DNA of 63,832 bases from Paraspadella gotoi (Eukaryota > Animalia > Chaetognatha), in contig CM119265.1 of NCBI GenBank assembly GCA_051294375.1, forward strand, positions 62,169-126,000, in the 5' to 3' direction. The translations under genes were made by a program, and so were the position numbers. The notes under the pieces are model-generated. The model was given only the letters and a program-made list of their open reading frames with translations. It ran no database searches and was not told the DNA's origin. This document shows positions 4,209-63,832 of this stretch, piece by piece. Numbering within the stretch: position 1 is the stretch's first letter; every line of letters starts with the position of its first letter.

Positions 4209-4623
4209 TGTAGCCTTTGCCCTGGCACAAAAGTAATTTTATTAATTAATTTAATATATCGAATCACATTAGTAATGTTTATAATACTTATATAACTTAA
4301 TTTCGAATCTCCCTTAATTAATTATATTTTATAAATAACAATGTCATCACCGGATTCGAACCTGCGACCTAAGTGATCCTAGGCCGCCGTCTTACCGATT
4401 CTGCCATCGGGCACATTTACCTGAAAACACCCAAAACCTGGATTAATGTTATTAAGACTCTTACTGACGGCCCTTTTGTTTATATAGTCTATCTCGATGG
4501 CCGCCAGTGGCGTTAATACTTGAATCACAGTAGCACACGCTTTTAACTGTAGTTATTGGGAGATGATTCGATATTATCCAATTCCTGTTTTAACCTCATG
4601 GTGCCAGGTTGTACAATATCTAC
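4209..4623 (+). repeat. 3' LTR of A1
   Basis: follows the PPT; near-identical to 23419-23831, which is followed by a PBS. Confidence 0.93.
4342..4414 (-). promoter_or_regulatory. tRNA-like Pol III A/B-box module inside the LTR, antisense
   Basis: reverse complement has TGGCAGAATCGG and GGTTCGAATCC at tRNA spacing; cloverleaf stems mostly unpaired. Confidence 0.7.
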
Positions 4624-4624
4624 G

Positions 4625-4827
4625 TAGGGTTAGGGTTAGGGTTAGGGTTAGGGTTAGGGTTAGGGTTAGGGTTAGGGTTAGGGTTAGGGTGGGAGGGTTA
4701 GGGTTAGGGTTAGGGTTAGGGTTAGGGTTAGGGTGGTTAGGGTAGGGTTAGGGTTAGGGTTAGGGTTAGGGTTAGGGGTTAGGGTTAGGGTTAGGGTTAG
4801 GGTTAGGGTTAGGGTTAGGGTTAGGGT
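4625..4827 (+). repeat. (TTAGGG)n telomeric repeat tract 1
   Basis: tandem TTAGGG lying directly between two LTRs. Confidence 0.99.
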
Positions 4828-5278
4828 TGTAGCCTTCAGTCCTGGCACCAAAATTAATTATTATTAATTATAGTATTTTATTTACAAAGGAACCAATTAA
4901 TAATTATCTTTCGAATTATGTAATACATCTTTTTATGTCTCCTAAATTAATTTATATATTATAAATAGCATGCCCTCACTCGGATTCGAACCCCCGACCT
5001 TTCGAGCCAAAGTCGAGCGTTCTAACCATTAAGCCATGATGGCTCTGTTACTCAAAGACATCCAAAACTCGGAGTAATATTATTTCCTTAATATCTCTTC
5101 TCATATTCGATGCTCTTTTGTTATTATCAACTCCCCTAATGGTTCAAGCTCGTTACTAATAACTCAGAGGGCTCTGTATTCGGAGACTAACCGTTTTCAG
5201 GAATTAACGTTTGGAGACTTTCCTGGTTCCTATTTCAATCCTGTTTTTCCCTCGCGGTGCCAGGCTTTCACATCTACA
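4828..5278 (+). repeat. 5' LTR of A2
   Basis: TGTAG...CTACA termini, followed by 2 nt and the PBS. Confidence 0.9.
4971..5043 (-). promoter_or_regulatory. tRNA-like (Gln-TTG-like) A/B-box module inside the LTR, antisense
   Basis: reverse complement GCCATCA TGGCTTAATGGTTAGAAC G CTCGA CTTTGGC TCGAA AGGTC GGGGG TTCGAAT CCGAG TGAGGGC A; acceptor stem 6/7, anticodon stem 4/5, T stem broken. Confidence 0.75.
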
Positions 5279-14811: not shown

Positions 14812-15436
14812 TGTGGCGGGACTCCGAGTGGCGTTGATACGCTACGAGATGGCGCGCCAACTGAGTGGGTCAGTTCTAAGGTAGCGCAGCGAGTTTGATT
14901 AATAACGAGGTAGCGTAGCGCAGGGAAAGTGAAACACGTTTATAATCGAAGTCGTTTTGTTTATTTGTTTTTTATCGATGAGTAGAGATTAATTGATTCG
15001 ACGTTAATAATTAATTATTTAAAGTAGACATTAATTAATCGAGGATAAAAACATTTCTCATATTATCAATGTACTTCATTACATTTGTGAGAAGAAGAAA
15101 AACGATTTGATGAAAGTTTGTGACATGAATTTATTTATTCAAAAGTTGAGACAAGACTGATTTTATCAGATTTGAATTTCATAAAGAAAACAGTTAGAAA
15201 ACAATTGTTTTGTTGGCGGTAAAACCCCTACTGTTTTGTTAAAGAAATCAAAGGAAAACAAAAGGCATCGATTATGTTTTTAAAGCTTTAAAAGTCGAAA
15301 TTGAAACTGGGATTTGCAAGCCGCCTGGTTGGCTGAAAGCTGAGGCTCGACGCTCGCCAGACCCTGAGTCGATGGTTCGAATCCCGGTTGGATTGAGTTA
15401 TTTCTGATTTAGATCTATCTCACTCAGGTGGCCGCA
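14812..15436 (-). repeat. family B LTR shared between B2 (as 3' LTR) and B1 (as 5' LTR)
   Basis: in element orientation TGCGGCC...GCCACA, preceded by a G-run PPT (about 15437-15446) and followed by PBS TGGTGAAAACCGACG; B box GGTTCGAATCCC at 15374-15385. Confidence 0.85.
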
Positions 15437-22246: not shown

Positions 22247-22784
22247 GAAACTTAGATGTCGTTTTCTCTCAAAAACAAAGGCAAATATTTTAGATAAAAC
22301 CGTTCGAAATATTTTTTTCCCCAATTTTATCTAGGGGGCGTATAGCCTTTGTACCAGGCACCAAAATAATTAAGTATTAATTATTATTAATTATTATTAA
22401 ATGAACCGACTATTTAGAATCGAACTACAAGTGGATATCACTTCGATATAAATTCCCTAATTAATTTATCTCTATAAATAAAGTGCCTTTAGTCGGATTT
22501 GAACCAGCGACCTAATGAGCCACGATCCGACGTCGTTTCCATTACGCCACTGGCACTGTTACCCAGAAATACCCAAAACGAGGAATAATCTTATTATCGA
22601 TATCTCTCTGATTATTCCTGATGTCCTTTTGTTTATCAAGTATTACCAAGCGGCCTTTATGCTTATTAATGAATCAAGATGCCCGACTTGGTAGCAGACG
22701 ATTATTATTAACGTTATGGCACACTTTTCGGTTCATAACCAATTACTGTTTTTACTCTCTCGGTGCCTGGTAATCACCTCTACA
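22247..22784 (+). mobile_element. 3' end of a family A element: UTR, PPT and 3' LTR (22341-22784)
   Basis: AGGGGGCG then TATAGCC...CTCTACA then GGGTTA; U5 end resembles the LTR stub at 38203-38242; antisense A/B-box module at 22484-22556. Confidence 0.85.
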
Positions 22785-23418: not shown

Positions 23419-26130
23419 TTAGCCTTTGCCCTGGCACAAAAGTAATTTTATTAATTAATTTAATATATCGAATCACTTAGTAATGTTTATAATACTTATA
23501 TAACTTAATTTCGAATCTCCCTTAATTAATTTATATTTATAAATAACATGTCATCACCGGATTCGAACCTGCGACCTAAGTGATCCTAGGCCGCCGTCTT
23601 ACCGATTCTGCCATCGGGCACATTCTAACCTGAAAACACCCAAAACCTGGATTAATGTTATTAAGACTCTTTACTGACGGCCTTTTGTTTATATAGTCTA
23701 TCTCGATGGCCGCCAGTGCGTTAATACTTGAATCACAGTAGCACACGCTTTTAACTGTAGTTATTGGGAGATGATTCGATATTATCCAATTCCTGTTTTA
23801 ACCTCATGGTGCCAGGTTGTACAATACTACAACTGGTGGATCCCAACTTGAAAGAAAATAAAACCACCTTCTGAAATATTCTTAATGCAACCTATAGCTC
23901 GGTCAAAGCCTTAGATATACTTTTCCTTCACTAATTAGCCTGGCAAAACCTTTTTAACTCGGAATTCACCTAAACGACAAAAAGTCAAACCAAAGCATCA
24001 AAACAAACAAGAAGATGAATCCAGCAAACCGGGTGAACAACTTTTTCAACGGATTAATATTCTCCCTCAGAGGCAAGTCGCGAATTTAAAAGCTGTGATA
24101 GCCTTGCCGTATCTTCTCACCCTCTCCTTCTCTTTCTCTTTCCCTCAACCCTCCCGTCTCTCGACGAATGAGGTGGGACCTCGCGGCGGCACACTGTGCG
24201 CGCGCGGCGCCTTTTTTGCGCAGCTCAGGCGACGCCCCCCTCTCCACAATCCTCACGGACATTCGAATCAACTCGGCGCCTCCAGCTGGCATCGGCAGTT
24301 CGGTAAGAGGAAGGCGATCTCCCGCTTACATCGCCTTCCCAGTCGAATTTTCAATTCCGATCGACGCCCTCTAACACTGCAGAGATGCAGCAGCGCCAGC
24401 TCCAGACCCACAAACCGAAACTCGTCCGCACTCTCGCGTCGGACACTTGCAGCGTTCTACCAAGGAACTCTCTATCAAAAAAACAAAAGCTGCCAGACTT
24501 TGATCCAGAAAATGTCGAAACTCTGGATCCAGAGAGTGGAGGCAGCGTACACCTCGCGCTGTCGACGACGTCTCAAAGGAGAAATTTCGCGCACATGGAA
24601 GACAAAGTTCCCCGTCGACTTCAATCCTCGCGTAAACGCCTCTTGTTTGGGCGAGGCCAACGACGCACGCTGGACTTCATTCCTCACTAATCTCGATCAG
24701 AATATGGCCGCACTCACAGCAAGCGGCGTCACTAATCGACGGAACTCGTCGAGAAAATCGACGCCCATCTCAACTGCTAGCGACGATTGAAAGAGAAAGC
24801 AGGAAAAGTAAGTTCGAACGACATCTTGAAGGAACTGGCTTTCTCAGGGAACTTTCCTACTGAAGTTTCAACGCAGGCTTTGGCGGAGCGCGTCGAAACC
24901 GTGAGCGCCGGACCGCGCCAAATTTGCCGATGCATCTTTCGATCGTGACGGCAAACTCCTTCACTCAGCAGCGTCGGCGATGCAGCGTACCGCCATCGTC
25001 AATCCAATCACGCCTTCTCATGCCGACAAATCAACGATCTCAGACGACGTTCACGCCGTCAATCGACAGCGTCAATCTCAAACTCCTCGACGACCTAATA
25101 ACGCCTTTCGTCGCCCGACAAACGTCGACAGATCGTCGGGAGCTCAATCATCACAATTCAAAACATCACGAGTCGACATCTGTTTCTATCATAAAAATAT
25201 GGCGGACTCAGCAAAAAAATGTGAGCGGGCTGCGACAGATATCAATCGGAAAAACTCGAAGGGCCGGCGGGAGGAGGTGAATTCTATCCCGTCCGGCACC
25301 CATTAATCGATTCAAAAGATTTCACTCCTCTTTGTGCACGACGTCGACAATAAGCTCAAGTGGCTCTGTCGACGCCGGCCAAACAGTTTCCATCATTCCC
25401 CAACGAGAGACGAGAGGGAAAGAGGGATCTTCTACTAAACTCAAAGCCGCCAACGGCTCCCATATAGCCTGCCTATGGTTACCGGGACGTTGCAGATCCG
25501 CTCTGCAAGAGAATTTCCCTTTCACGGTAACAATAGCAGATGTTCACCCAACCCATCCTCGCGCATCAGACTTTCTGCCGAGCTTACTTAGCCCCCAACC
25601 ATCGCCGATGGTTTTTTTATTCGATCTGAAACGACTGTTAGTACAATTCCAGCCTCAAGGCCAACAAACAAAATTCCTATTCGAATTAACTTTGTCATCA
25701 GGCAGATGACCCATACTATTAAGCTCCTCGATACATATCACGACCTTTGGTACACTTCATTTCCAACCGACCGAGCCAAACATGGAGTCAGACACCATAT
25801 TCCCACAACAGGCCGTCCAGCTACAATCTAGAGCACGTCGCCTCGCTCCAGACAAATTAGAAGTCCCAGAAGGAATCGACAAACTTGACCTCGGCATCGC
25901 TCGCCGCGCCAAAAGTGAGTGGGCGTTCGCCTCTACTCGTTGGTAAATTAAACCCGACGGCGGTTTACAGAGTGGTGGTGGAGATTTCCGCCGCCTGAAT
26001 AATGCAACTATCGACGACAAAATTATTCCCGTCAAACTCTTTAACGACTTCAACGCGAACCTCTTGCTGGCAAAAAAGTATTCAGCAAGATCGATTTACT
26101 AAAAGGGGTATCATCAGATACCAGTCGCAG
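23419..26130 (+). mobile_element. 5' half of an A1-type element (LTR 23419-23831, PBS 23834, gag, start of pol); indel-rich sequence
   Basis: LTR matches 4209-4623; 25263-26130 matches window positions 1-857 with many indels. Confidence 0.85.
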
Positions 26131-39178: not shown

Positions 39179-39879
39179 TCGCGGCCACTCGAGACAATTA
39201 ATTTCGGTGAAGAAATAATTATTCCAGAGTTGAATTCGAACCATCGAACTCAGGCCTGGGACGCTGGGACTATAGCCAATCAGAACCAGGAGGCCATGAG
39301 TCTTAGATGATTAAAACAGATCTTATAGCTTAAATCTTCTTCGAAGCCTTTGTTTTCAACTCAGATCAACTGATTTGTTCACAATCAATAGATGCTTCCC
39401 GCCTTTTCAAACTGATTAGTTCAACTGATTGTTTACCTGAAAAATCGATTTCTCTGATTATGTCACTGCTGGTTTTTAATCTCGAAATAAAACGTTGATC
39501 TTTCACAATAAAAAACATTGTTTTTAATTCTTCTCTCAATGTAAATAATACATTCTTCAAAGAGAAAAACCTTATTGTTGAAACTCTCTCAATTTGAATT
39601 CGAATTCTTAATAATCAAGTAATTTCTTCTACAAATGATTAAACTTCGATTTAAATATCTCAAACTGATTTAAACTCATTCGACTTGATTTTAACCTCGA
39701 TATTAAAATATCAAATTGAAAACAATCAACTCTGTCTATAATGTGACACGCTTTCCCTGCCCGGCAAGTTCATCTTCACTGAAGTGGATTCACTTTACTC
39801 GATTAGCTACGCGTCACGTTCCTGTCAAGCCGAGCGAGTGCCACGAGTCACGCTGTGGTGACCTCGATGTCGAGCCACA
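39179..39879 (+). repeat. 5' LTR of B3
   Basis: direct repeat of 45253-45947; antisense B-box variant at 39232-39242. Confidence 0.93.
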
Positions 39880-40065
39880 CATGGTGAAACCGACGACAAA
39901 CCAAAGCCAACCTTCAAGAAGGGATTCGACTTCACTCGGCTTTCCCCGAGGTAAGATTGGGCGGCGAAAGGGGTAATTGGCAAATCGCCCAATTATTAAC
40001 ACCCTCACTCCCTTCTTTTCGAATCCTACCGCTACCGGAGTCCACAACGCCACAACTCAGTGTCA

Positions 40066-41148
40066 ATGAGCGACCCCGACCTCCGCTCTCGCCTACGCTC
40101 TGCGCAGCGAAACGTCGACGACCAGCGCGACGCCGCTTCGAACCTACAAATACCCATAGGCTTCGGGCGAGGAGCGAGATCAAGGTCAACGTCTCCAGTT
40201 TTCGCCGACGCAGCTCCATCCTTCAACTTTCAGCCGACGAACGCCGGCAACTTCGTCGACGCCGAGATGGCGACAGGCGCTTCCAATCCACACGACCTTC
40301 AGGATGAAAACGCGGAACTCCGCGCGGCATTGGCCGCCGCCACTCGAGCCCTGGAAAGAGCAGCGAATCGAAAACCGGACTTGCCTGACTTCGACGCCTC
40401 TAATATCGAGATATGGATTAAGAGGGTCGAAGCAGCCTATACTAGAGCAGGGATTACAGCTCCTAAAGCGAAATTTGCGCATCTCGAATCTAAGATTGGA
40501 GTAAAGGTCGACCCGCGAATCAACCAGTTCCTCTATGGCGACCCTACAGAAGCAGCATGGCTCAGTTTCATAGACTACTTAAGAAAAGAGTACGGACTTA
40601 CTCGTCGCCAACAGGCGGCGAATCTACTCGACGCCATCGACGCAGACGGATTAAAACCCTCAAAGATTTTAGCACAACTGGAAGAAAAAACGCGCAATGT
40701 GACTCTAGACGATCTCCGAAAAGAAAAAGTGCTCCGGGAACTACCTATCGAAGTGAGAAGGCAGCTGGAGGACAAGGCGGACGAGTTATCAGCTCGTCAA
40801 CTCTGTGAGATGGCGGACCGCCATTTCGACAACGACGGCAACTTACGAATCCGCCAGTCATCGAATATCGTCAACCACGTCGATAGAAGTCAGCGAGACC
40901 AGAGCGAATCTGATTCGGACGACGACAACGGCGTCAACGCCGTTAACAGCAGCAACAAGCGCGCCTTCAACGCTAAAAAGAAACAACCTCACGCTAGGAA
41001 AGAGAAAGCAAAGGCAAAGCTCGTTACTTTGTGTCAGAAACACATAAAATTCGGGAATGACGCCTGGTCATGTGAGCCAGGGTGTTCAAAATTTGACGAG
41101 AGCCTGAAAAAACGTGAGGGAAACGCCAAAGGGGGACGACGTCGGTGA
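40066..41148 (+). CDS. gag: Gag of B3
   Basis: ATG at 40066 (MSDPDLRSRL); CQKHIKFGNDAWSCEPGC. Confidence 0.94.
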   Translation: MSDPDLRSRLRSAQRNVDDQRDAASNLQIPIGFGRGARSRSTSPVFADAAPSFNFQPTNAGNFVDAEMATGASNPHDLQDENAELRAALAAATRALERAANRKPDLPDFDASNIEIWIKRVEAAYTRAGITAPKAKFAHLESKIGVKVDPRINQFLYGDPTEAAWLSFIDYLRKEYGLTRRQQAANLLDAIDADGLKPSKILAQLEEKTRNVTLDDLRKEKVLRELPIEVRRQLEDKADELSARQLCEMADRHFDNDGNLRIRQSSNIVNHVDRSQRDQSESDSDDDNGVNAVNSSNKRAFNAKKKQPHARKEKAKAKLVTLCQKHIKFGNDAWSCEPGCSKFDESLKKREGNAKGGRRR

Positions 41149-41160
41149 ACGCCGTCCCCC
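41118..41160 (+). promoter_or_regulatory. -1 ribosomal frameshift signal
   Basis: canonical G_GGA_AAC heptamer, 6-nt spacer, hairpin GGGGGACG/CGTCCCCC. Confidence 0.85.
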
Positions 41161-44100
41161 TCGCTTCAACTCAATCACCGTCGACAAATAACCTCTTATA
41201 CATTCGCGACGCCGGCGATCGGACTAAGTGGTTGGTCGACGGCGGGGCTCTACTATCGATCGTCCCGCCTACAAAGGAGCAACGTCAAGCCGGCCCAGAT
41301 CCAAAGATCCGCCTTCAAGCCGCCAACGGCTCACCGATTGAGTGTTATGGGACAGTCGACAAAGTGGTTCAACTCGGCAATAGAAAGTTTAATTATGAAT
41401 TCATCGTCGCCAATGTCAAACAATTCATACTAGGCGCGGATTTCCTTGCTGAGAACTTTCTAGCACCTAACCACAGGGATGGACTACTACTTGATCTGCG
41501 TGATTACTCAACAATCGCCGCTTCAGTGGCGTCAGAAACTCCAGCGCACATCAACCTCGTCGACCGACAGGGCGAGCGATATTATAAACTCCTCGACTCT
41601 TTCCCATCACTAGCCACGCCAACTTTCGAGGTGAAAGATCCTAAGCATGGAGTTACACACTCCATTCCCACTGAAGGCAGACCATGCCAATCAAGGGCAC
41701 GCCGCTTAGATCCAGAAAAGCTGGCCGTCGCTAAACGTGAGCTGGAGAAAATGGTTTCTCTGGGCATAGCTCGACGTGGAAAATCTGAATGGTCATCTCC
41801 GCTTCATGTTGTGGAAAAACCCGACGGCGGATGGCGTTGTTGTGGGGATTACAGGCGCCTAAATTCCCAAACAATAGATGACAAATATCCAGTTAAACTT
41901 CTAACGGATTTTAACTCACAGCTTGAGGGAAAGACGATTTTTTCTAAAATCGATCTTTTGAAGGGCTATCATCAGATACCCGTCAATCCTGATGACGTTA
42001 AAAAAACGGCGGTTATCACCCCGTTTGGATTGTATGTCTTTCCACGTTGCCCATTCGGTCTTAAGAATGCCGGGCAAGATTTTCAGAGGCTCATGGATGA
42101 GATCTTGGGGGAAATCCCCCATACCTTTGTTTATCTTGACGACATTCTTGTTGCCTCATCGTCACCAGAGGAGCATTACCAAGACCTCGAGCGCGTGTTT
42201 AAAGCACTGGATGCCAACGGCTTAGTAGTAAATACTAAGAAATGTCTGCTAGGACAGGACTCGCTGGAGTTCCTAGGCTTCTTGGTGGACAAAAATGGCG
42301 TACGACCTCTGCCTAAACGCGTACAGACTCTCCAAGAAACGACAAGGCCAACTACCATCAAGGAACTCCAGCGGTTCCTAGGTATGGTAAATTACTACAG
42401 GCGCTTTATTCCGAAAGTCGCCCATAGATGCGCACCACTTTACGACGCATTAAGTGGCAAACCGAAAACCCTCGAATGGACAAGCGACTGCGATCGAGCA
42501 TTCGAAGCCATCAAGGAAGGATTAGTGCAAGCGGCTCTCCTCCACCACCCCAGAACCGGCGCTCAATTGTGCATCACGACCGACGCGTCGGACCAGGCAG
42601 TGGGCGCGGTCCTGGAGCAGCGTGGGCCAAAAGGCTGGGAACCGCTCGCCTTTTTTTCGACCAAACTGGCCAAAAACCAGAGGTTATGGCCTCCCTTCGA
42701 CAAGGAGCTTTTCGGCGCCTTCAAGGCCGTCCGGCATTTCCGGCATTGGGTGGAAGGACGTTCTTTTACGTTGTACACCGATCACCAGAGTTTGGTCTCA
42801 GCCATAAGGAAAAAGTCGGAACCACAAACAGTGCGTCAATCCTATCAATTGTCTGTCATTGCAGAATTTACGACGGATGTTAGGTACTTAAAGGGCAAGG
42901 CGAACGTGGTCGCCGACGCCCTATCTCGACCTAACGCCCTGCCGACGACGACGACTCCGCCGACGAATCCCTCCACGTCAGCGACGCAGGCCTCAACGCC
43001 AACGTCAACAGATTCACCGGCGACTCGGCCCAAAAACTCAATGACGACCTCATCATCAAGCGAGACCGCTCATACGCCTTCATCATCGACAGCGACGACC
43101 GATTCCGCGCTCATAGCGTCAACATCCTCAACAGAAAACGAAAAAGAGAGAGGAATAAAGGAGAATCGACTCGAGGACGCCCACGCGTTAATATCGTCGC
43201 TAACAAACTTCGAAATAAACTTCGAACAAATGGCAAGGGAGCAGGTGCTTGATCCAGATTACCAGAGCATAGCAGAGAATGCAAGATCAGGACTCTCATT
43301 TAGAAAAATTAAAGTGGGGGAACAAGATCTACTCGTTGACGTTTCAAACGGGCCGGCGCGCCCATTCGTCCCGGCGTCATGGCGCCGGCGGATTTTCGAC
43401 ATTATACATGGACTCGGCCATCCGGGAGTAGAGGCCACACGCAAAGCAGTCGCGGCCAAATTCGTCTGGACGTCGATGCGCCAAGACGTGACGAAGTGGG
43501 CGCGGGACTGCTTGGACTGCCAGCGAGCCAAAGTTACCAGACACGTTGTCCCGGAAATCGGCGAGTTTAAGGTGCCACCACAACGATTTCAACATCTCAA
43601 CTTAGATCTCGTTAAAATGCCAACGTCTAACGGCTTCTCTCACTTACTAACAATAGTCGACAGGTTTTCGAGATGGCCGTCAGCCATCCCGATCAAGGAC
43701 ACCCTCACTACAACCATTCTAGATGCTTTGAGTCACAATTGGATTAGTGTGTTCGGCACGCCCACAATAATCACCACCGATAGAGGAACTCAATTTAATT
43801 CCGCGCTGTGGCGTCAATTGACCAAAAGCTGGGGAATTAAACATCAGATGACGACCTCCTACCACCCCCAGGCGAACGGCCTAGTAGAACGATTTCATAG
43901 GAGGTTGAAGGAGTCCCTCATCGCCCTCGCTCGAGAAAACCGTGAAAAATGGTTTTGGAAGCTTCCAATGACAATGCTCGCAATTCGTACGACTATCAAA
44001 GAGGACATCGGCGCCTCCGCGGCCGATTTGGTCTTCGGCGAGGGCATCAGAGTCCCCGGCGCCCTTCTCGACGACCCTCAAAACGACAACGCCGAGCTAC

Positions 44101-44912
44101 AACGTCAACGACGGAACCAATTGGCGAAACTGCGCGTCGAGGTGGCGAGGCTACAACCAACTCCAACATCAGCTCATCACCATCCGACAATCCATCTTCC
44201 AAGCAACCTCCAGACGGCACAATACGTTTTCGTCAAACGCGCAGGCGTCAATCCACCCTTGGTCCCGCCCTACGAGGGCCCCTACAAGGTAATTAACAGA
44301 AATGGAATTAATTTTACAATTGAAATTCCCAGCGTCGGACGAGAGACGATCAACATCGCGCGCGTGAAGCCAGCTTGGGTCAGCGACGAGACGCTGGAGG
44401 TCGATCAAGCACACCCCCAGCGACGCCCACCAGGCCGTCGACCCGGTCCCAGGACAACAACGCCGGCGCCAACATCACGAATCACGCGTTCAAATCATCA
44501 ACGCGCCTCTTCACCCGATCCGACGCCTCCGTCTCCTCCTCCTCCTCCTCCTCCTCCTCCTCCTCCTTCACCGACCGTCTCCCCGACCTCACCCAAGCAA
44601 CCCCATCGTCTCCCCGACCCCCACCAGTCGCCTTTACGTTTTTTCTCAAATCCTTCCCATTCTCCCGAGCCTCCACGCAAGACGAGTCCAGCGTCAAAAA
44701 GGCAAAAAGGGGAAGACAACAACAACAACAACGAAAAGAGAGAGAATGAGCCAATCATCGAACGTTTCTCTAAGCCAAGCTCAGACGACTTCTCACGAAG
44801 ATGTCCAGGCATGACAAGACCTACATATTCCGTTGTACTGAAGGAGATGCTCAGAAGACAAAACGATCACAACAACAACAACCAAAAAAGCAAAAGTCCC
44901 CCTGTCACCTAA
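41145..44912 (+). CDS. pol: Pol of B3 (1255 aa, intact; probably made as Gag-Pol)
   Basis: uninterrupted ORF with PR, RT, RNase H, IN, GPY motif and long C-terminal tail. Confidence 0.97.
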   Translation: MNAVPLASTQSPSTNNLLYIRDAGDRTKWLVDGGALLSIVPPTKEQRQAGPDPKIRLQAANGSPIECYGTVDKVVQLGNRKFNYEFIVANVKQFILGADFLAENFLAPNHRDGLLLDLRDYSTIAASVASETPAHINLVDRQGERYYKLLDSFPSLATPTFEVKDPKHGVTHSIPTEGRPCQSRARRLDPEKLAVAKRELEKMVSLGIARRGKSEWSSPLHVVEKPDGGWRCCGDYRRLNSQTIDDKYPVKLLTDFNSQLEGKTIFSKIDLLKGYHQIPVNPDDVKKTAVITPFGLYVFPRCPFGLKNAGQDFQRLMDEILGEIPHTFVYLDDILVASSSPEEHYQDLERVFKALDANGLVVNTKKCLLGQDSLEFLGFLVDKNGVRPLPKRVQTLQETTRPTTIKELQRFLGMVNYYRRFIPKVAHRCAPLYDALSGKPKTLEWTSDCDRAFEAIKEGLVQAALLHHPRTGAQLCITTDASDQAVGAVLEQRGPKGWEPLAFFSTKLAKNQRLWPPFDKELFGAFKAVRHFRHWVEGRSFTLYTDHQSLVSAIRKKSEPQTVRQSYQLSVIAEFTTDVRYLKGKANVVADALSRPNALPTTTTPPTNPSTSATQASTPTSTDSPATRPKNSMTTSSSSETAHTPSSSTATTDSALIASTSSTENEKERGIKENRLEDAHALISSLTNFEINFEQMAREQVLDPDYQSIAENARSGLSFRKIKVGEQDLLVDVSNGPARPFVPASWRRRIFDIIHGLGHPGVEATRKAVAAKFVWTSMRQDVTKWARDCLDCQRAKVTRHVVPEIGEFKVPPQRFQHLNLDLVKMPTSNGFSHLLTIVDRFSRWPSAIPIKDTLTTTILDALSHNWISVFGTPTIITTDRGTQFNSALWRQLTKSWGIKHQMTTSYHPQANGLVERFHRRLKESLIALARENREKWFWKLPMTMLAIRTTIKEDIGASAADLVFGEGIRVPGALLDDPQNDNAELQRQRRNQLAKLRVEVARLQPTPTSAHHHPTIHLPSNLQTAQYVFVKRAGVNPPLVPPYEGPYKVINRNGINFTIEIPSVGRETINIARVKPAWVSDETLEVDQAHPQRRPPGRRPGPRTTTPAPTSRITRSNHQRASSPDPTPPSPPPPPPPPPPPSPTVSPTSPKQPHRLPDPHQSPLRFFSNPSHSPEPPRKTSPASKRQKGEDNNNNNEKRENEPIIERFSKPSSDDFSRRCPGMTRPTYSVVLKEMLRRQNDHNNNNQKSKSPPVT

Positions 44913-45252: not shown

Positions 45253-45947
45253 TGCGGCCACCTGAGACAATTAATTTCGGTGTATTCCAGAGTTGGATTC
45301 GAACCATCGAACTCAGGCCTGGGACGCTGGGACTATGAGCAATCAGCACCAGGAAGGCCATGAGTCTTAGATGATTAAAACAGATCTTATAGGCTTTAAT
45401 CCTTCTTCTTCGAAGCCAGCCTTTTGTTTTCAACTCAGATCAACTGATTTGTTCACACAATCAAATAGATGGCTTCCCGCCTTTTCAAACTGATTAGTTT
45501 CAACTGATTGTTACCTGAAAATCGATTTCTCTGATTATAGTCACTCTGGTTTTTAATCTCGAAATAAAACGTTGATCTTTCACAATAAAAAACATTGTTT
45601 TTAATTCTTCTCTCAATGTAAATAATACATTCCTTCAAAGAGAAAAACCTTATTGTTGAAACTCTCTCAATTTGAATTCGAATTCTTAATAATCAAGTAA
45701 ATATCTTCTACAATGATTTAAACTTCGATTTAAAATATTCAAACTGATTTAAAACTCATTCGACTTGATTTTAACCTCGATATTAAAATATCAAATTGAA
45801 AACATCAACTCTGTTATAATGTGAGCACGCTTTCCCTGCCCGGCAGGTTCATCTTCACTTGAAGTGGATTCACTTACTCGATTAGTTACGCGTCACGTTC
45901 CTGTCACGCCACGAGTCACGCTGTGGTGACCTCGATGTCGAGCCACA
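45253..45947 (+). repeat. 3' LTR of B3
   Basis: TGCGGCC...GCCACA after the PPT; GGATTCGAACC at 45295-45305. Confidence 0.93.
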
Positions 45948-46617: not shown

Positions 46618-47051
46618 TGTAGCCTGTGACCGCAGAAAAATAATAATAATATTTTTATAATAACCGAATCATTAATTATTAATTAATTAATCCTTCCATG
46701 ATTAATATCCTTCTATTACGAGTCCTCTGATAATTAATTACGAGTTATAAATAACACTTACCTGATCGGATTCGAACCAGCGACCTAGCGGCCCATAGTC
46801 CGATGCTCTAACCACTTGGCCGCCGAGACACTTTAGTTACAAATGATTGGAACTTCCTCATATTGAATTCTGAAAGCTCCCGACGTCCCTTTTGTTTTAT
46901 ATATCGAATCCAAGGGCCTTCGTTATCGTTATTAATCCAAAATGGCCGCTGCTGATAAGCAGATGATATTTGTAACCTTTACAGAGACGATTCGGTTATA
47001 AGTCACTTCTCTTTGATCCTGTAACTCTGCCAGGGTATTCGCCTATCTACA
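46618..47051 (+). repeat. 5' LTR of A5, with antisense A/B-box module at 46759-46831
   Basis: direct repeat of 52724-53158; reverse complement has CGGCCAAGTGG and GGTTCGAATCC. Confidence 0.93.
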
Positions 47052-52723: not shown

Positions 52724-53158
52724 TGTAGCCTTTGACCTGGCAGAAAAAATAATAATAATTATTTTTATAATAACCGAATCAATTATTTAATTAATTAATC
52801 TCCATGTAATATCCTTCTATTACGAGTCTCTGATAATTAATTACGAGTTATAAATAACACTTACCTGATCGGATTCGAACCAGCGACCTAGCGGCCCATA
52901 AGTCCGATGCTCTAACCACTTGGCCGCCGAGACACTTTAGTTACAAATGATTGGAACTTCCTCATATGAATTCTGGAGAAAGCTCCCGACGTCCCTTTTG
53001 TTTTATATATCGAATCCAAGGGCCTTCGTTATCGTTATTAATCCAAAATGGCCGCTGCTGATAAGCAGATGATATTGTTAACCTTTACAGAGACGATTCG
53101 GTTATAAGTCACTTCTCTTTGATCCTGTAACTCTGCCAGGGGTATTCGCCTATCTACA
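52724..53158 (+). repeat. 3' LTR of A5
   Basis: TGTAG...CTACA; A/B-box module at 52862-52935. Confidence 0.93.
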
Positions 53159-55938: not shown

Positions 55939-56666
55939 TGCGGTCCACTCGATCGAATCCATTTCATTTGGGAAATAAATTCATCATTTATAAAGCTTTA
56001 AATAGAAGACGAGATCTTTTGTTTTACAAAAGATATATCTAACTTCTCCAAGATGTCTCCACATATTAAACCTTTTGTTTGATGACTGTTTACCTTTGTT
56101 ATTGATTTTAATTCTGTTCAGTTCGGTTTTGAATCTTGATTCAAATAGAATCTTTCATCAATTAAAAACTCGTTTTTATTATTCAACAAATGTAAAGCTA
56201 CATTAAGAAAGTGCTGAAATAAAAACTAAATGAACTCGTTAATGTTTCTAACCAATCAATAAAATCTGCCAACCAATCAATTCATCTCTAATCGAATCTT
56301 AGTTATTTCTCAATTGGTTAAACAAATAAACAATCATCTTAATGTTAAACGAATCACCTTCCCTGCGACTTAATCACCTCCGCTAATCACCTTCGGTTCC
56401 AACGTCTTAGGACTGACTCATTTCAGTTGGTCAGTCAACTTCGTTCATTGCTGTGGCCTGTCTCTGTGAGCTAACCACACTTGGTGAGCACCGACAAAGG
56501 ACGTTACCAACTTCAAACGGGAAAGTCGGCGACACCTAACCCTCCTCGAGGTAAGATTGGGTGAAGAGTGGGATTTTAGTGAGTTGCCCCCAATCTTCTC
56601 ACACTTTTCCCTTCTTTTTAAACTTTCCCTTCACGTGAATCGCTGGATCCGAATTCGACGCCGTCA

Positions 56667-57749
56667 ATGAGTGGGTCTGATCTAAGATCACGCTTACGCT
56701 CCGCTCAACGCGACGTCGACGAGCAGGGACAACGCCTCCAGATTCCTTGTGGATTCGGGAGAGGCGCTCGCTCGAGATCGACGTCTCCAATCTTTGCTGA
56801 CGTCGCACCGAACTTCGATTTCCCGACGGCCGGCGCCCACGATTTCGACGACGCCGACATGGCAACGGCCGACGCGACGCCGCGTAGCTTACGCGACGAA
56901 AACGACGAATTGCGCGCCGCCCTCGCCGCGGCGACGAGAGCATTGGAGAGAGCGTCTAATCGCAAACCGGATCTACCGGACTTCGACTCATCTAATATAG
57001 AGATCTGGATAAAGCGTGTAGAAGCCGCCTACACGCGCGCAGGGATCGTCAACCCCAGGAACAAGTTCGCCCACTTGGAATCGAAAATTGGGATAAACGT
57101 CGATCCCAAGATCAACCAATTTCTTTTCGGTGAAACCACTGAGGCGACTTGGGAAGAGTTTATCGCCTACTTACGCAGCGAATATGGACTAACGCGGCGC
57201 CAGCAAGCCGCGAATCTGCTCGACACCCTCGACACAGACGGCGCTAAACCCTCAAAAATCCTCGCCAAACTCGAAGAGAAAACAAGGTCTCTCACTATCG
57301 ACGACGTGAGAAAAGAAAAGATCCTGCGAGAACTCCCAAACGACATTCGACGCCAACTCGAGGAAAAGGCGGATAACCTCACCGCCAGCGAGTTATGTAA
57401 ACTGGCCGACCATCACTATGACAACGACGGCAACGTCAAACTGAAACAAACGTCGTCACTAATCAACAACGTCGAGAGAGATTTGCATAATCATCGCAAC
57501 TCGGACTCAGACGACGACGACGATGCAGTCAACGCAGTCGACGACCATCCTCGACGACACGCTGGAGGAAAGAAGCGTCAACATCCGGCGTCGAAAGGAA
57601 AAGCGAAACCCAAGGCTAAACTCGTCACTCTATGCACCAAACACGCAAGGTTCGGAGACGACACGTGGACGTGTGAAGCAGGCTGCTCTCGCTACGAGGA
57701 GTTCCAAAAGAAAAAAGAGGGAAACGCCAAGGGGGGACGCCGGCGGTGA
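56667..57749 (+). CDS. gag: Gag of B4 (360 aa)
   Basis: CTKHARFGDDTWTCEAGC CHCC motif; G_GGA_AAC at 57719-57725. Confidence 0.94.
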   Translation: MSGSDLRSRLRSAQRDVDEQGQRLQIPCGFGRGARSRSTSPIFADVAPNFDFPTAGAHDFDDADMATADATPRSLRDENDELRAALAAATRALERASNRKPDLPDFDSSNIEIWIKRVEAAYTRAGIVNPRNKFAHLESKIGINVDPKINQFLFGETTEATWEEFIAYLRSEYGLTRRQQAANLLDTLDTDGAKPSKILAKLEEKTRSLTIDDVRKEKILRELPNDIRRQLEEKADNLTASELCKLADHHYDNDGNVKLKQTSSLINNVERDLHNHRNSDSDDDDDAVNAVDDHPRRHAGGKKRQHPASKGKAKPKAKLVTLCTKHARFGDDTWTCEAGCSRYEEFQKKKEGNAKGGRRR

Positions 57750-60700
57750 ACGCCGTCCCCCAAGCGTCAACTTCTTCACCGGCGCCCAACGACCTTCTTT
57801 TCATCAGGGACGCCGGGGACCGGACTCGATGGTTAATTGACGGTGGTGCGTTACTCTCTATTGTTCCGCCGACGCCGCAGCAGCGCAGCAGCGGCCCGAA
57901 TCAAACGACAAAACTGCAGGCGGCCAACGGATCGCCAATATCATGCTACGGAACAGTCGAGAGAACGGTTCAACTAGGAAATAGAAAATACGTTTATCAA
58001 TTCGTAGTCGCCGACGTTAAACAAAGTATACTCGGCGCTGACTTCTTAGCAGAAAATTTCCTGGCGCCCAACCACCGAGATGGCCTTTTACTGGATTTAC
58101 GAGATTACTCTACCATAGCAGCGTCGACGTCAAAAGGAACATCCGCTCATGTCAATTTCGTAGACAGACAAGGCGAACAATATTACAAAATCCTCGAGTC
58201 ATTCCCTTCGCTGGCCACGCCCACTTTCGAGTTGAAAAACCCAAAGCATGGCGTGACACATTCCATCCCTACCGAAGGTCGTCCCTGCCAATCGCGTGCC
58301 CGGCGATTGGACCCTGAGAAATTGGCCGTGGCAAAGAGAGAACTTGAAAAAATGGTATCACTGGGTATAGCAAAGCGTGGCAAGTCAGAGTGGTCGTCGC
58401 CACTCCACGTCGTCGAAAAACCGGACGGGGGATGGCGTTGTTGTGGCGACTATCGCCGTCTCAACGCCCAAACGGTAGAAGACAGATACCCAGTTAAGCT
58501 ACTTACAGATTTCAATTCTCAATTAGAAGGAAAAACCATCTTCTCTAAAATCGATCTTTTGAAAGGGTATCACCAGATACCGGTGAACCCAGATGACATC
58601 AAAAAAACGGCAGTGATAACTCCGTTTGGCCTGTATGTTTTTCCACGTTGTCCTTTTGGACTGAAAAACGCAGGTCAAGATTTCCAGAGACTCATGGATG
58701 AGATCTTGGGGGATATTCCCCATACTTTTGTGTACTTAGACGACATCCTCGTCGCCTCCTCATCTCCAGAGGAACACAAGCAAGACCTCCAGCGCGTATT
58801 CAAAGCTCTCGATGAGAATGGTTTGGTTGTAAATACCAAAAAATGCCTTCTTGGACAAGAATCGCTCGAATTTCTGGGATTTTTGGTCGATAAGAACGGT
58901 GTACGACCACTACCGGAAAGAGTTCAGACACTCCGCGAGACGACACGGCCCACAACTATCAAAGAGTTGCAACGTTTCCTCGGTATGGTAAATTATTACC
59001 GCCGCTTCATACCGAGAGTTGCCCATCGATGTTCAGCTCTCTACGAGGCTTTGAGCGGCAAGCCTAAAACACTGAACTGGTCTGAAGACTGTGAAAAGGC
59101 CTTCGAGGCCATCAAGGAAGGCCTCATCTCGGCAGCACTGCTTCATCATCCTCGGACTGGAGCTCAGTTGTGTATAACGACTGATGCATCAGACAACGCC
59201 ATTGGAGCCGTCCTAGAACAACGAGGACCGAAGGGATGGGAGCCACTAGCTTTTTTCTCGGCTAAATTAGCAAAAAACCAAAAGCTGTGGCCTCCCTTCG
59301 ATAAGGAGTTACTAGGAGCCTTCAGAGCCGTCCGCCATTTCAGGCATTGGGTGGAGGGACGAGCTTTCACGATCTACACCGATCATCAAAGCCTCGTCTC
59401 AGCGATAAAGAAAAAATCCGAGCCACAAACGATCCGACAAGCTCATCAACTATCGTCGATAGCCGAATTTACCACGGATATTAGATATCTCAAAGGTAAA
59501 GCAAATGTTGTGGCGGATGCGCTCTCTCGTCCCAACGCCCCATCGACAACTCCAGCAACGGCGAGAGAAAACTCCGAGTCGAAAAAAGAGCAGCAGACCG
59601 ACAGACCGACCGACGAAAAACGAGACATCGAAAAACGCGAAAAAAGCATTAAGCCAGATCGACTTGAAGACGCTCAAGCCGTCATCTCATCACTCACTAG
59701 CTTTGAGATAGACTTCGAGGACATGGCTCGCGAACAAGTCTTAGACCCTGAATTTCAAAAGATATCTGACGACGCCAGATCGGGACTAAACTTCAGAAAA
59801 ATCCGCATAGGCGATCACGATCTACTCGCCGACATCTCGAATGGTCCAGCTAGACCTTTTGTTCCCGCGTCTTGGCGTCGCAAAGTTTTCGAGGTAATTC
59901 ATGGATTAGGCCATCCCGGCGTCGACGCCACAAGGAAAGCAATATCTGCAAAGTTTGTATGGACTAATATGAGACAGGACGTGTCGAAGTGGGCAAGAGA
60001 CTGTGTTGATTGCCAACGCGCCAAGGTCACGCGACACGTCGTCCCTGAAATCGGGGAATTCAAAGTCCCTCATCGTCGATTTCAACATATTAATCTGGAC
60101 TTAGTTAAAATGCCAAAATCAAACGGATATTCGCACCTATTAACTATCGTCGACAGATTCTCAAGATGGCCGTCGGCCATCCCTATCATCGACACCCTGA
60201 CGCCGACGATCCTCGATGCTCTCAGCCTACACTGGATTAGTGTCTTCGGAACACCAGCTATCATAACCACGGATAGAGGAAGTCAATTCAACTCGGCCTT
60301 GTGGAAGCAGCTAACGAAGCACTGGGGCATAAAACACCAGATGACCACGCCCTATCATCCACAGGCGAATGGTTTGGTTGAAAGGTTCCATCGGAGGCTC
60401 AAGGAATCGCTCATGGCATTGGGGAAAGAGGAGAGACAACAATGGTACTGGAAATTACCGTTGACATTATTGGCAATTAGGACCACGATCAAGGAAGATA
60501 TTGGAGCATCGGCTGCAGATCTTGTTTTCGGCGAAGGTGTAAGCATCCCTGGCAGTATGCTTGGAGACTTTCAAAACGACGACGAGAATCTCAATCGCCA
60601 GCGTCGAAATCAACTTTCGAAATTAAGACTCGAAGTAGCTCGATTACAGCCAACTCCAACGTCAGCACATCAACAGCCCGCTGTACATCTCCCTTCGAAT

Positions 60701-61294
60701 CTCACCACCGCCCAGTATGTCTTCATCAGACGAGCCGGCGTTCAACCGCCGCTGACACCTCCCTACGACGGCCCATTTCGAGTGATTCATCGAAATGGAC
60801 TTAATGTCACCGTCGAAATTCCCAGCTCGGGAAGGGCAACCGTCAACGTCTCCAGAATCAAACCAGCGTGGATCAGCGACGAGCAGCTGGACGTCGACGA
60901 CTCACAACCTCGCCCAGAGAGAGCTCCTGGCCGTCGGCCAGGCGTAAGAACTCGAAAACCGGCGCCAACAACGAGAAAAACGCGATCGGCGAATCGGCGA
61001 GCGTCGTCTCCTCCTCCTCCTCCTCCTCCTTCATCCACCTCTTCGATACTCACCGCGAATCACCCTCAGCCTCTCCCTGACCCACCACGAACGCCTTTAC
61101 GCTTTTTGTCACCATCTTCTCATTTTCCCGAGCCTCCACGCTCGACGACTCCATCATCAAAAAAACGAGAAAATAATAACAACAACAATAACAATCGCCC
61201 AACTTATGCTATCGTCTTAAAAGAAATGCTACAAAGACAAAAAACGGAAAATGACAACAACAAAAACAAAAACAAAACCCTCGCGCTAACATAA
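57746..61294 (+). CDS. pol: Pol of B4 (1182 aa, intact)
   Basis: LIDGGA, YLDD, TTDAS, HHCC, DDE and YDGPF motifs. Confidence 0.97.
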   Translation: MNAVPQASTSSPAPNDLLFIRDAGDRTRWLIDGGALLSIVPPTPQQRSSGPNQTTKLQAANGSPISCYGTVERTVQLGNRKYVYQFVVADVKQSILGADFLAENFLAPNHRDGLLLDLRDYSTIAASTSKGTSAHVNFVDRQGEQYYKILESFPSLATPTFELKNPKHGVTHSIPTEGRPCQSRARRLDPEKLAVAKRELEKMVSLGIAKRGKSEWSSPLHVVEKPDGGWRCCGDYRRLNAQTVEDRYPVKLLTDFNSQLEGKTIFSKIDLLKGYHQIPVNPDDIKKTAVITPFGLYVFPRCPFGLKNAGQDFQRLMDEILGDIPHTFVYLDDILVASSSPEEHKQDLQRVFKALDENGLVVNTKKCLLGQESLEFLGFLVDKNGVRPLPERVQTLRETTRPTTIKELQRFLGMVNYYRRFIPRVAHRCSALYEALSGKPKTLNWSEDCEKAFEAIKEGLISAALLHHPRTGAQLCITTDASDNAIGAVLEQRGPKGWEPLAFFSAKLAKNQKLWPPFDKELLGAFRAVRHFRHWVEGRAFTIYTDHQSLVSAIKKKSEPQTIRQAHQLSSIAEFTTDIRYLKGKANVVADALSRPNAPSTTPATARENSESKKEQQTDRPTDEKRDIEKREKSIKPDRLEDAQAVISSLTSFEIDFEDMAREQVLDPEFQKISDDARSGLNFRKIRIGDHDLLADISNGPARPFVPASWRRKVFEVIHGLGHPGVDATRKAISAKFVWTNMRQDVSKWARDCVDCQRAKVTRHVVPEIGEFKVPHRRFQHINLDLVKMPKSNGYSHLLTIVDRFSRWPSAIPIIDTLTPTILDALSLHWISVFGTPAIITTDRGSQFNSALWKQLTKHWGIKHQMTTPYHPQANGLVERFHRRLKESLMALGKEERQQWYWKLPLTLLAIRTTIKEDIGASAADLVFGEGVSIPGSMLGDFQNDDENLNRQRRNQLSKLRLEVARLQPTPTSAHQQPAVHLPSNLTTAQYVFIRRAGVQPPLTPPYDGPFRVIHRNGLNVTVEIPSSGRATVNVSRIKPAWISDEQLDVDDSQPRPERAPGRRPGVRTRKPAPTTRKTRSANRRASSPPPPPPPSSTSSILTANHPQPLPDPPRTPLRFLSPSSHFPEPPRSTTPSSKKRENNNNNNNNRPTYAIVLKEMLQRQKTENDNNKNKNKTLALT

Positions 61295-61636: not shown

Positions 61637-62175
61637 TGCGGCCACTCGATCGAATCCATTTCATTTGGGAAATAAATTCATCATTTTATAAAGCTAAATA
61701 GAAGACGAGATCTTTTTGTTTTAACAAAAGATATATCTAACTTCTCCAAGATGTCTCCACATATTAAACCTTTTGTTTGATGACTGTTTACCTTTGTTTA
61801 TTGATTTTTAAATTCTGTTCAGTTCGGTTTTTGAATCTTGAATTCAAATAGAAATCTTTCATCAATTAAAAACTCGTTTTTTATTATTCAACAAAATGTA
61901 AAGCTACATTAAGGAAAGTGCTGAAATAAAAACTAAATGAACTCGTTAATGTTTCTAACCAATCAATAAAATCTGCCAACAATCAATTCATCTCTAATCG
62001 AATCTGAGTTATTTCTCAATGGTTAAACAAATAAACAATCATCTTATGATTAAACGAATCACCTTCCTGCGACTTAATCACTCCGCTAATCACCTTCGGT
62101 CCAACGTCTTAGGATGACTCATTCAGTTGGTCAGTCACTTCGTCATTGCTGTGCCCTGTCTCTGTGAGCTCCACA
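61637..62175 (+). repeat. 3' LTR of B4
   Basis: direct repeat of 55939-56479; ends CCACA then GGGTTA. Confidence 0.93.
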
Positions 62176-63265: not shown

Positions 63266-63832
63266 TGTACGCATTGCCAGGTTCACCCGCCTATAAGAAT
63301 GACAACCTTCAGTCCCTGACCCGGTGCTCATTGAGTAAAGCCATCAGCTCATGAACCACTGGTACCCGGGTCGAATCCAACCCGGTCCTACGCCTGCGGA
63401 AGCGTGAGGACGGCCGGTAAACCGCCTTGGGGCGATGGCACCCCTCAAGCCTGGTTCCAAGCCGGACCGTTCCATGGCTACTAAAAGGGGGTTATAGAAG
63501 TTAGGATAGTCATCCTTCAGAACCCACTTAGCGGCCTTATCCACACTGGTGAGCCCTATACCTGTCGAAGCGTATCCAACCTTTCTGATTCAGGCCCATG
63601 GACAGTGCTGAAGATTGCTGCCTCCCTCCACTGGAAGCAGTGAGGGTGGGTTACAAATCTGGGGGGCATGTAGTCGGGCATTGGCCTAGGTTCACCCCGC
63701 CTATAAGCATGACCACTTCAGTCCCTGACCCGGTGGCTCATTGAGTAAAGCATCAGCTCATGACCACTAGGTACCGAGGTTCAATCCCACCCGGTACCTA
63801 CTCTGCGGGAAGCGTGAGGACGGCCGTAAGCC
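63266..63832 (+). mobile_element. non-autonomous miniature LTR element (TRIM); 3' LTR cut by the window end
   Basis: LTR 63266-63545, PBS TGGTGAGCCC at 63547, 123-bp non-coding interior, PPT GGGGGGCA 63661-63668, second LTR from 63669. Confidence 0.88.
63727..63798 (+). promoter_or_regulatory. tRNA-like A/B-box module in the TRIM LTR, sense orientation (also at 63318-63388)
   Basis: TGGCTCATTGAG ... CTCATGA ... GGTTCAATCCC (GGGTCGAATCC in the first copy); TATAAG about 25 nt upstream. Confidence 0.62.

What the first reader, a model, noticed from the sequence alone, without database searches (positions are those of the whole stretch)
4342..5043. Antisense tRNA-like A/B-box module conserved in otherwise diverged LTRs of autonomous elements
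Every full family A LTR (4342-4414, 4971-5043, 22484-22556, 23549-23621, 46759-46831, 52862-52935) has a roughly 73-nt minus-strand unit with an A box, the AGGTC variable loop and GGTTCRAATCC, while stems and anticodon position drift (AGG, TTG, GTG, ATG). It begins just after a plus-strand TATAAATA. B1 and B3 LTRs keep an antisense B box too (15374-15385, 45295-45305); B4 lacks a clear one. Keeping the boxes but not the cloverleaf suggests selection for TFIIIC binding. Inference: a barrier against telomeric silencing (tDNA and B-box barriers are known in yeasts) or a Pol III antisense RNA promoter.
Basis: partly seen in the sequence, partly recalled or inferred. Interest (0 to 1): 0.8.

Follow-up and report, generated by a model that had tools for sequence, protein, structure and literature searches.

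The report
Backwards tRNA-like gene in telomere retrotransposons
Jumping genes that sit inside this genome's telomere repeats carry, in their end repeats, a backwards tRNA-derived cassette that keeps the start and stop signals for RNA polymerase III but has lost the tRNA shape, and it likely works as a small built-in gene that would keep the element's promoter open in silenced chromatin.

Summary
The window is an array of CsRn1-type Gypsy LTR retrotransposons inserted into (TTAGGG)n, mostly at a fixed GGGT site. Ten of 11 LTR families examined (6 of 7 in the window, 4 of 4 in relatives from metagenome contigs, Gag core about 50% identical) hold a 72-75 nt antisense tRNA-derived unit. A box, AGGTC, B box and tRNA spacing are kept; the stems pair at chance level. 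New here: a T-run starts 14-16 nt after the B box in all ten families. So this looks like a complete Pol III gene (promoter plus terminator), not a bare TFIIIC site. Family B4 has deleted it and still has open reading frames. Best reading: a selected, transcribed Pol III unit that keeps the LTR open (0.5). Rivals are a functional antisense RNA, primer-tRNA pairing, Pol II motifs and a relic. No RNA or chromatin data were available. Closest known: Helenus TRIMs (sense, non-autonomous). A Helenus-like TRIM sits in the same window. The scan noted an antisense tRNA-like unit once before, inside a fungal Gypsy (not in its LTR).

The parts
4209..4624 (+). 3' LTR, subfamily A1 (after polypurine tract, before telomeric repeats)
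4341..4413 (-). antisense tRNA-derived unit A1: A box, AGGTC, B box (4352-4362)
4333..4338 (-). TTATTT, predicted non-canonical Pol III terminator (other strand of TATAAATA)
   Evidence: motif class from PMC3141230
4625..4827 (+). (TTAGGG)n array between two elements
4828..5278 (+). 5' LTR, subfamily A2, preceded by GGGT
   Evidence: short-read contig match
4971..5043 (-). antisense unit A2, the most tRNA-like copy; TATTT follows at 4963-4967
   Evidence: Rfam RF00005 34.8 bits
5281..5295 (+). primer-binding site of tRNA-Trp type
   Evidence: compared with PBS printed in PMC2582038 and PMC10886601 Fig. S2
14814..15436 (-). LTR of family B1, shared between tandem units (polypurine tract before, PBS after)
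15323..15395 (+). unit B1, antisense to its minus-strand element; TTATTT at 15398-15403
22341..22784 (+). 3' LTR, subfamily A3, followed by GGGT
22484..22556 (-). antisense unit A3
23548..23620 (-). antisense unit, second A1 copy (5' LTR about 23419-23831)
39221..39295 (-). antisense unit in the 5' LTR of family B3 (LTR 39179-39879)
40000..44912 (+). gag (CX2HX9CX3C) and overlapping pol (RT, RNase H, integrase) of the B3 element
45284..45358 (-). antisense unit in the 3' LTR of B3; this copy lacks about 10 nt holding the T-run
46757..46829 (-). antisense unit A4 in 5' LTR 46618-47051
52860..52933 (-). antisense unit A4 in 3' LTR 52724-53158
55939..56479 (+). 5' LTR of family B4, unit deleted; left flank is unique AT-rich DNA
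56622..61294 (+). open gag and pol frames of B4
61637..62175 (+). 3' LTR of B4, unit deleted, followed by GGGT and telomeric repeats
63241..63832 (+). short non-coding LTR element (TRIM) with the same PBS and polypurine tract type and a sense tRNA-like unit; Helenus-like

Best explanation
The LTRs of these Gypsy retrotransposons carry an antisense, tRNA-derived cassette with an A box, a B box and a T-run at tRNA spacing, which is likely a working RNA polymerase III gene that would make a short non-tRNA transcript and, by loading TFIIIC, TFIIIB and Pol III, likely keeps the element's own promoter region open in telomeric or tandem-array heterochromatin. Shown: the sequence anatomy, its conservation against flanks and stems, its presence in three distant Gag groups, the antisense orientation in every autonomous case, and insertion into TTAGGG repeats. 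Inferred: factor binding, transcription of an 80-nt RNA ending at the T-run, and the benefit to the element. Also inferred: the reverse orientation is kept because the long genomic RNA must be made by Pol II and would otherwise carry a tRNA-like processing substrate.
For: B box 10/11, AGGTC region 6/8 and A box 6/12 invariant among four subfamilies versus 24% in flanks; the best 19-nt window of the LTR is this block. Combined A+B+T-run score reached by 0 of 1000 composition-matched random LTRs in nine families and 4 of 1000 in B3 (the T-run term was chosen after seeing the alignment). A profile built only from window units finds the four foreign LTR units as its top four hits in 59.8 kb (E 3e-4 to 3e-3; next 0.36). 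T-run at +14 to +16 in 10 of 10 families, chance 0.02-0.10 each, about 1e-4 counting three clades once: TTTT(T) in the four foreign LTRs, T2AT3 or TAT3 in the window, a class shown to terminate human Pol III (PMC3141230, passages). Stems at chance: anticodon 21/50 vs 19.4 shuffled, outer T-stem 15/30 vs 13.6, acceptor 29/70. Two extra antisense units in L019 and L009. Precedent: a fission-yeast tDNA barrier needs TFIIIC and Pol III and is orientation-independent (PMC2040200, abstract).
Against: No RNA, ChIP or chromatin data. B4 has deleted the unit and keeps open gag and pol frames and near-identical LTRs, so it is dispensable in at least one family. B4 also keeps AAATAA, so that motif may serve the plus strand. 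L015 and L022 have a non-purine at B-box position 57, and among the four foreign units the anticodon arm (8/18 invariant) is conserved too. One of the two B3 copies lacks the T-run (noisy assembly). A T-run after the unit is also seen in Helenus LTRs, so it may be inherited with any tRNA-gene capture. Telomeric flank seen in only 1 of 4 foreign LTRs. The Pol II start site in these LTRs is unknown.
Confidence: 0.5

Rival explanations
1. The unit is a Pol III gene whose RNA product matters: an abundant ~80-nt hairpin RNA, fully complementary to the element's own LTR RNA, acting as a self-limiting antisense regulator, a small-RNA precursor or a decoy for host silencing.
For: A1-A3 units fold into long non-cloverleaf hairpins only on the tRNA-like strand (z -2.8 to -3.4, versus -1.1 to +1.0 on the other strand; 3 of 46 control windows reach -2.2), each pairing the GGUCG block with a different partner. 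Foamy viruses carry Pol III pri-miRNA cassettes in LTR U3 (PMC7693620, passages).
Against: B1 and the four foreign LTR units show no folding excess (z above -0.9); A4 is -1.5 and B3 -1.5 to -2.3. No shared structure or seed across families. The strand bias could be left over from the ancestral tRNA.
Confidence: 0.17
2. The antisense unit acts in the genomic RNA as a second primer-binding site that pairs with the T and D arms of the primer tRNA, as in Ty3.
For: The conserved blocks are complements of the T and D loops; the PBS is short and degenerate. Ty3 has such a 3' PBS in U3 (PMC5371799, passages). L019's unit matches the tRNA-Trp 3' end at 8 of 12 positions.
Against: The primer is Trp-type, with A at position 62 in both the published Trp end and the element's own PBS; all 10 units have C62 and match the Trp end at only 44 of 120 positions. 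Two units have A54. It does not explain the T-run. B4 lacks the unit. Host tRNA genes were not available, so the test used a bee tRNA end.
Confidence: 0.1
3. The conserved blocks are plus-strand Pol II signals (TATA box, initiator or transcription-factor sites, polyadenylation signal) that happen to lie in an old tRNA insertion.
For: TATAAATA is invariant at 8 of 8 in family A, more than a terminator needs; AAATAA survives the B4 deletion. A B2 SINE giving an antisense Pol II promoter is a recalled precedent, not checked.
Against: B1, B3 and three of the four foreign LTRs have no TATA consensus at that place; the foreign ones read GAAAAG. A-to-B spacing stays at tRNA length while the unit's place in the LTR varies (B box at nt 64-65, 154-165, 275, 321).
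Confidence: 0.13
4. The unit is a neutral relic of one or several tRNA, SINE or Helenus insertions.
For: Loss in B4; degenerate B boxes in L015 and L022; extra copies in L019 and L009 show that such captures recur; a very abundant tRNA-derived TRIM is present in the host.
Against: Boxes are held while stems and flanks diverged to near background; all 12 units in autonomous elements are antisense; the T-run distance is fixed.
Confidence: 0.1

Closest known systems
Helenus TRIMs / TRIMp3 (Kojima 2024, PMC10886601) and Cassandra
   Same: tRNA-derived unit inside the LTR with conserved A and B boxes, an AGGTC-like loop, no functional cloverleaf, often a T-rich run behind it; animal Helenus use Gypsy-type PBS and 4-bp TSDs.
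   Different: Helenus are 0.3-1.3 kb, non-coding, and the unit is sense in the supplement sequences I saw (three antisense B-box strings had 0 hits). It is proposed to drive the element's own RNA. Here the elements are 6.5-7 kb, autonomous, and the unit points away from the genes. The paper says autonomous partners must use Pol II and are unlikely to share LTR sequence; it mentions other Repbase LTRs with tRNA-like parts but did not analyse them.
CsRn1 clade of Ty3/Gypsy (CsRn1, PwRn1, AgCR; PMC2582038)
   Same: tRNA-Trp PBS TGGTGA(G/C)CCC, CX2HX9CX3C Gag, 4-bp TSD, overlapping gag and pol.
   Different: Described members show no target preference; here the target is mostly GGGT within TTAGGG. 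No tRNA-derived LTR unit was mentioned in the passages read.
tDNA and B-box chromatin barriers of yeasts (PMC2040200, PMC3395662)
   Same: A/B boxes predicted to load TFIIIC next to repeat heterochromatin; orientation-independent barrier precedent.
   Different: Those are host loci with measured occupancy; here the unit is carried by the mobile element and nothing is measured.
Pol III pri-miRNA cassettes in foamy-virus LTR U3 (PMC7693620)
   Same: A short Pol III unit inside the LTR of an autonomous retroelement.
   Different: Those make defined miRNA hairpins with shown expression; here the unit is tRNA-derived and antisense, and hairpins appear only in family A.
Ty5 and telomere-specific non-LTR elements SART/TRAS, HeT-A/TART (PMC4700185)
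   Same: Retrotransposons living at telomeres.
   Different: Ty5 targets silent chromatin through Sir4, not a sequence; sequence-specific telomeric elements in that review are non-LTR.

Membership tests
CsRn1-clade Gypsy | PBS complementary to tRNA-Trp | tested here: met
   TGGTGAGCCC(A/G)AC in family A matches the printed motif; B-family PBSs are more degenerate
CsRn1-clade Gypsy | Gag CX2HX9CX3C signature | tested here: met
   6 of 6 Gag frames examined
CsRn1-clade Gypsy | RT-RNase H-integrase order in pol | tested here: met
   Pfam; protease match weak
CsRn1-clade Gypsy | 4-bp target duplication | tested here: met
   GGGT next to the LTR at 6 of 10 telomeric junctions exactly, 3 within one base, 1 unclear; noisy assembly
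CsRn1-clade Gypsy | RT phylogeny with reference CsRn1/Kabuki | not testable with these tools
   no named reference sequence among the hits
Helenus / TRIMp3 | tRNA-derived sequence in the LTR with conserved A and B boxes, non-functional as tRNA | tested here: met
Helenus / TRIMp3 | non-autonomous, under about 1.3 kb | tested here: not met
   gag and pol present
Helenus / TRIMp3 | unit oriented to transcribe the element | tested here: not met
   antisense in 10 of 10 LTR families that have it
Functional tRNA gene | cloverleaf stems | tested here: not met
   ARAGORN 0; stems at chance; only A2 passes Rfam
Type-2 Pol III gene | A box and B box at tRNA spacing | tested here: met
   B 9-10 of 10 and A 5-6 of 6 pattern positions in ten families; two foreign B boxes deviate at position 57
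Type-2 Pol III gene | T-run terminator just downstream | tested here: met
   +14 to +16 in 10 of 10 families; non-canonical form in the window
Type-2 Pol III gene | TFIIIC/Pol III occupancy and transcript | not testable with these tools
   no RNA holder listed
tDNA-type chromatin barrier | blocks spread of silencing | not testable with these tools
   needs reporter or ChIP data
Ty3-type bipartite PBS | LTR sequence complementary to the primer tRNA's T and D arms | tested here: inconclusive
   C62 vs Trp A62 in 10 of 10, 44/120 over positions 62-73; host tRNA-Trp unavailable and D arm not compared

The most novel reading that the evidence does not exclude
A widespread Gypsy lineage integrates into telomeric repeats by sequence and has repeatedly captured tRNA genes backwards as a portable anti-silencing device: a Pol III gene that insulates the LTR and, in family A, makes a hairpin RNA that blunts or tunes host small-RNA silencing, a retrotransposon counterpart of viral Pol III RNAs.
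Probability: 0.2. Interest if true: 0.85.

Novelty: new variant of a known kind. Interest (0 to 1): 0.64.

Why it matters
How retrotransposons that target heterochromatin get themselves transcribed is an open question. A 75-nt cassette with a natural deletion variant (B4) in the same genome makes it directly testable. It extends small-RNA-gene capture in LTRs from non-coding TRIMs to autonomous elements, in the opposite orientation and with a different job. The array also appears to be an integrase-type LTR element with a fixed site in TTAGGG repeats, which my four literature searches did not find described. Such units can be miscalled as tRNA genes (one copy passes the Rfam threshold).

Tried and rejected
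No whole genome is held for the window, so genome-wide copy numbers, host tRNA genes and the share of telomeric insertions could not be measured. No RNA holder listed; run X9 is only guessed to be RNA and was not used as evidence. ARAGORN and Rfam found nothing in the 25 related loci; the units are too degenerate. Viral contigs and prokaryote genomes gave no relatives. Host identity: all top Gag and Pol relatives are unnamed metagenome proteins; the protein atlas did not answer and the cluster look-up could not be made. Functional tRNA gene: rejected (stems at chance). Assembly artefact: rejected for the A1 and A2 LTRs. B box in B4: best antisense score is reached by 380 of 1000 random LTRs and the trained model finds nothing there. 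The TRIM's first LTR copy did not beat chance (596 of 1000); its tRNA-like reading rests on the second copy and on read variants with canonical B boxes. Single versus repeated capture is unresolved: outside the boxes identity between groups is 0.26-0.42. The Gag tree is a quick tree with open forks and two frameshifted long rows; it shows three separate groups and B4 inside B, no more. Rows left out: 21 of 25 loci lack the LTR stretch that would hold the unit (upstream DNA of 12 was read; L023 has a PBS with no LTR before it). The paper on a tRNA-like sequence in HIV-1 U3-R was not retrieved and is recalled only.

Full report
Setting. The window is a noisy, gapped scaffold of an unidentified eukaryote made of Ty3/Gypsy LTR retrotransposons (gag; pol with RT, RNase H and integrase) separated by (TTAGGG)n arrays, all G-rich on the plus strand. 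LTRs run TG..CA, 415-450 nt in family A and 540-700 nt in family B. The PBS is tRNA-Trp type and all 6 Gag frames examined carry CX2HX9CX3C, the marks given for the CsRn1 clade in PMC2582038 (passages). No reference-based RT tree was possible. At 10 LTR-telomere junctions (9 in the window, 1 in L022) the flank next to the LTR is GGGT exactly in 6, within one base in 3 and unclear in 1. One B-type LTR end abuts an array in the opposite orientation (53290), and the 5' flank of B4 is unique AT-rich DNA. Whether the arrays are true chromosome ends is not known.

The observation. All six family-A units are present, with small coordinate corrections. Exact B boxes number 8 against 0.16 expected; all are in LTRs and antisense to the element. 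The six copies are four subfamilies at 54-62% identity. Invariance across them is 10/11 in the B box, 6/8 in AGGTC plus 5' T-stem, 6/12 in the A box, 2/17 in the anticodon arm, 1/11 at positions 63-73 and 76/317 in flanks. A second block, CTTTTGTT, 60-72 nt further along, is nearly as conserved (9 of 11 columns) and is also in all B families; its role is unknown. Only the A2 copy passes Rfam's tRNA threshold and ARAGORN calls none. Short-read contigs confirm the A1 and A2 LTR sequence.

Beyond the window. A Gag alignment found 25 related loci in metagenome contigs. Four hold the relevant part of the LTR (L009, L015, L019, L022) and all four have an antisense unit, with the B box at LTR nt 275 in three of them. 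L019 has a second unit in its LTR and L009 one in the 3' untranslated region, both antisense. L022 is preceded by TTAGGG repeats; L009 and L015 are tandem units sharing an LTR, as is B1 in the window; L019 starts at the contig end. A profile from the six window units alone ranks the four foreign LTR units first to fourth (E 3e-4 to 3e-3, next 0.36), and the reverse profile ranks the six family-A copies first. A model of all units finds 17 matches in 123.7 kb, all training units or their sister copies, none in coding DNA or B4. A quick Gag tree separates window A, window B and the foreign group, with B4 inside B, so B4's lack is most simply a loss; pairwise alignment shows a clean gap of about 80-95 nt.

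Anatomy. Units are 72-75 nt with tRNA spacing. Stems pair at chance: anticodon 21/50 (shuffled 19.4), outer T-stem 15/30 (13.6), acceptor 29/70. In the alignment of all units a T-run lines up behind the B box. It starts at +14 to +16 in 10 of 10 families, with a chance of 0.02-0.10 each: TTTT or TTTTT in the foreign LTRs, TTATTT or TATTT in the window. T2VT3 and TVT3 motifs are sub-optimal but working terminators for human Pol III (PMC3141230, passages). One of the two B3 copies lacks it.

Mechanism. A terminator matters only if the unit is read, so the sequence fits a complete type-2 Pol III gene better than a bare TFIIIC site (inference). Because the RNA's sequence and fold drift while the signals stay, I rank the act of loading and running Pol III above the product (0.5). 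A fission-yeast tDNA barrier needs TFIIIC plus Pol III and works in either orientation (PMC2040200, abstract); B-box-only ETC sites are the alternative model (PMC3395662, passages). Against: B4 does without it; two foreign B boxes deviate at position 57; Helenus LTRs also have T-rich runs behind their units, so the run may come with any capture; only one foreign LTR shows a telomeric flank. The product may matter in family A, where A1-A3 fold into strand-specific hairpins (z -2.8 to -3.4; controls 3 of 46), but B1 and the foreign units do not; 0.17. Pairing with the primer tRNA as in Ty3 (PMC5371799, passages) is weakened by C62 in all ten units against A62 in tRNA-Trp and 44/120 identity over the 3' end; 0.1. 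Plus-strand Pol II signals 0.13; neutral relic 0.1.

Comparison with what is known. Kojima 2024 (PMC10886601; main text parts 1-4 of 6, supplement parts 1 and 10 of 11 and string searches) describes Helenus TRIMs with the same box-not-cloverleaf pattern, non-autonomous and sense in the sequences seen, and notes that other Repbase LTRs hold tRNA-like parts without analysing them. The present elements fail two Helenus criteria (autonomy, orientation) and are filed as a CsRn1-type Gypsy variant. Foamy viruses give a precedent for Pol III cassettes in LTRs of autonomous retroelements (PMC7693620, passages). Four searches and passages of one review (PMC4700185) gave no report of an antisense tRNA-derived unit in autonomous LTRs or of an LTR element with a fixed TTAGGG site; the library lacks most subscription papers and Repbase Reports, so this is limited. 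The HIV-1 U3-R tRNA-like sequence, the B2 SINE antisense promoter and adenovirus VA RNA are recalled, not checked.

Companion element. At 63241-63832 a short two-LTR element with the same PBS and polypurine-tract type has a sense tRNA-like unit. Read contigs show canonical B boxes, very high summed depth and mostly AT-rich flanks. It is likely a Helenus-like TRIM mobilised by these Gypsy elements, which would supply a candidate autonomous partner.

Verdict. Real, conserved across distant relatives, a new variant of a known kind; function inferred, not shown. Interest 0.64.

Noticed in passing
window 63241-63832: Helenus-like TRIM: two ~305-nt LTRs (second cut by the window end), ~120-nt interior with the family-A type PBS and polypurine tract, sense tRNA-like unit; very high summed depth in read contigs and mostly AT-rich flanks, so dispersed rather than telomere-specific.
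   Followed up: partly
window 4828, 22784, 39179, 46618, 62175; L022:41: LTR ends meet TTAGGG arrays at a fixed GGGT site: apparent sequence-specific integration of a CsRn1-type Gypsy into telomeric repeats, not found in my literature searches.
   Followed up: partly
window 54623-55938 and 55939-62175: B4, the only family without the unit, is also the only one with a unique AT-rich, non-telomeric 5' flank; its 3' end is telomeric. Could be a chimeric join or a hint that unit loss goes with leaving telomeres (one case).
   Followed up: partly
window LTRs, e.g. 5112-5122, 15258-15266, 56014-56024; L015:945, L022:538: A conserved CTTT(T)GTT block in all window LTR families, 55-72 nt from the unit's 5' end; may be the Pol II start or a transcription-factor site.
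   Followed up: no
window 14814-15436; L009:938-1679; L015:446-1222: LTRs with a polypurine tract before and a PBS after: tandem elements sharing one LTR.
   Followed up: no
L019:155-230 and L009:590-670: Extra antisense tRNA-like units, one as an insertion in an LTR and one in a 3' untranslated region, suggesting repeated capture.
   Followed up: partly
L009, L015, L019, L022 units: Foreign units keep a GCA triplet at the anticodon position (Cys-like) while window family A has AGG/TTG/GTG/ATG, so donors may differ.
   Followed up: no
window 4867-5106, 22523-22692 (joints): Read contigs that share LTR ends but differ inside point to more LTR subfamilies in the host than the window shows.
   Followed up: no
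window 11450-11700 and 18900-19120: Long Ala/Ser/Thr-rich low-complexity insertion between RNase H and integrase in B1 pol.
   Followed up: no
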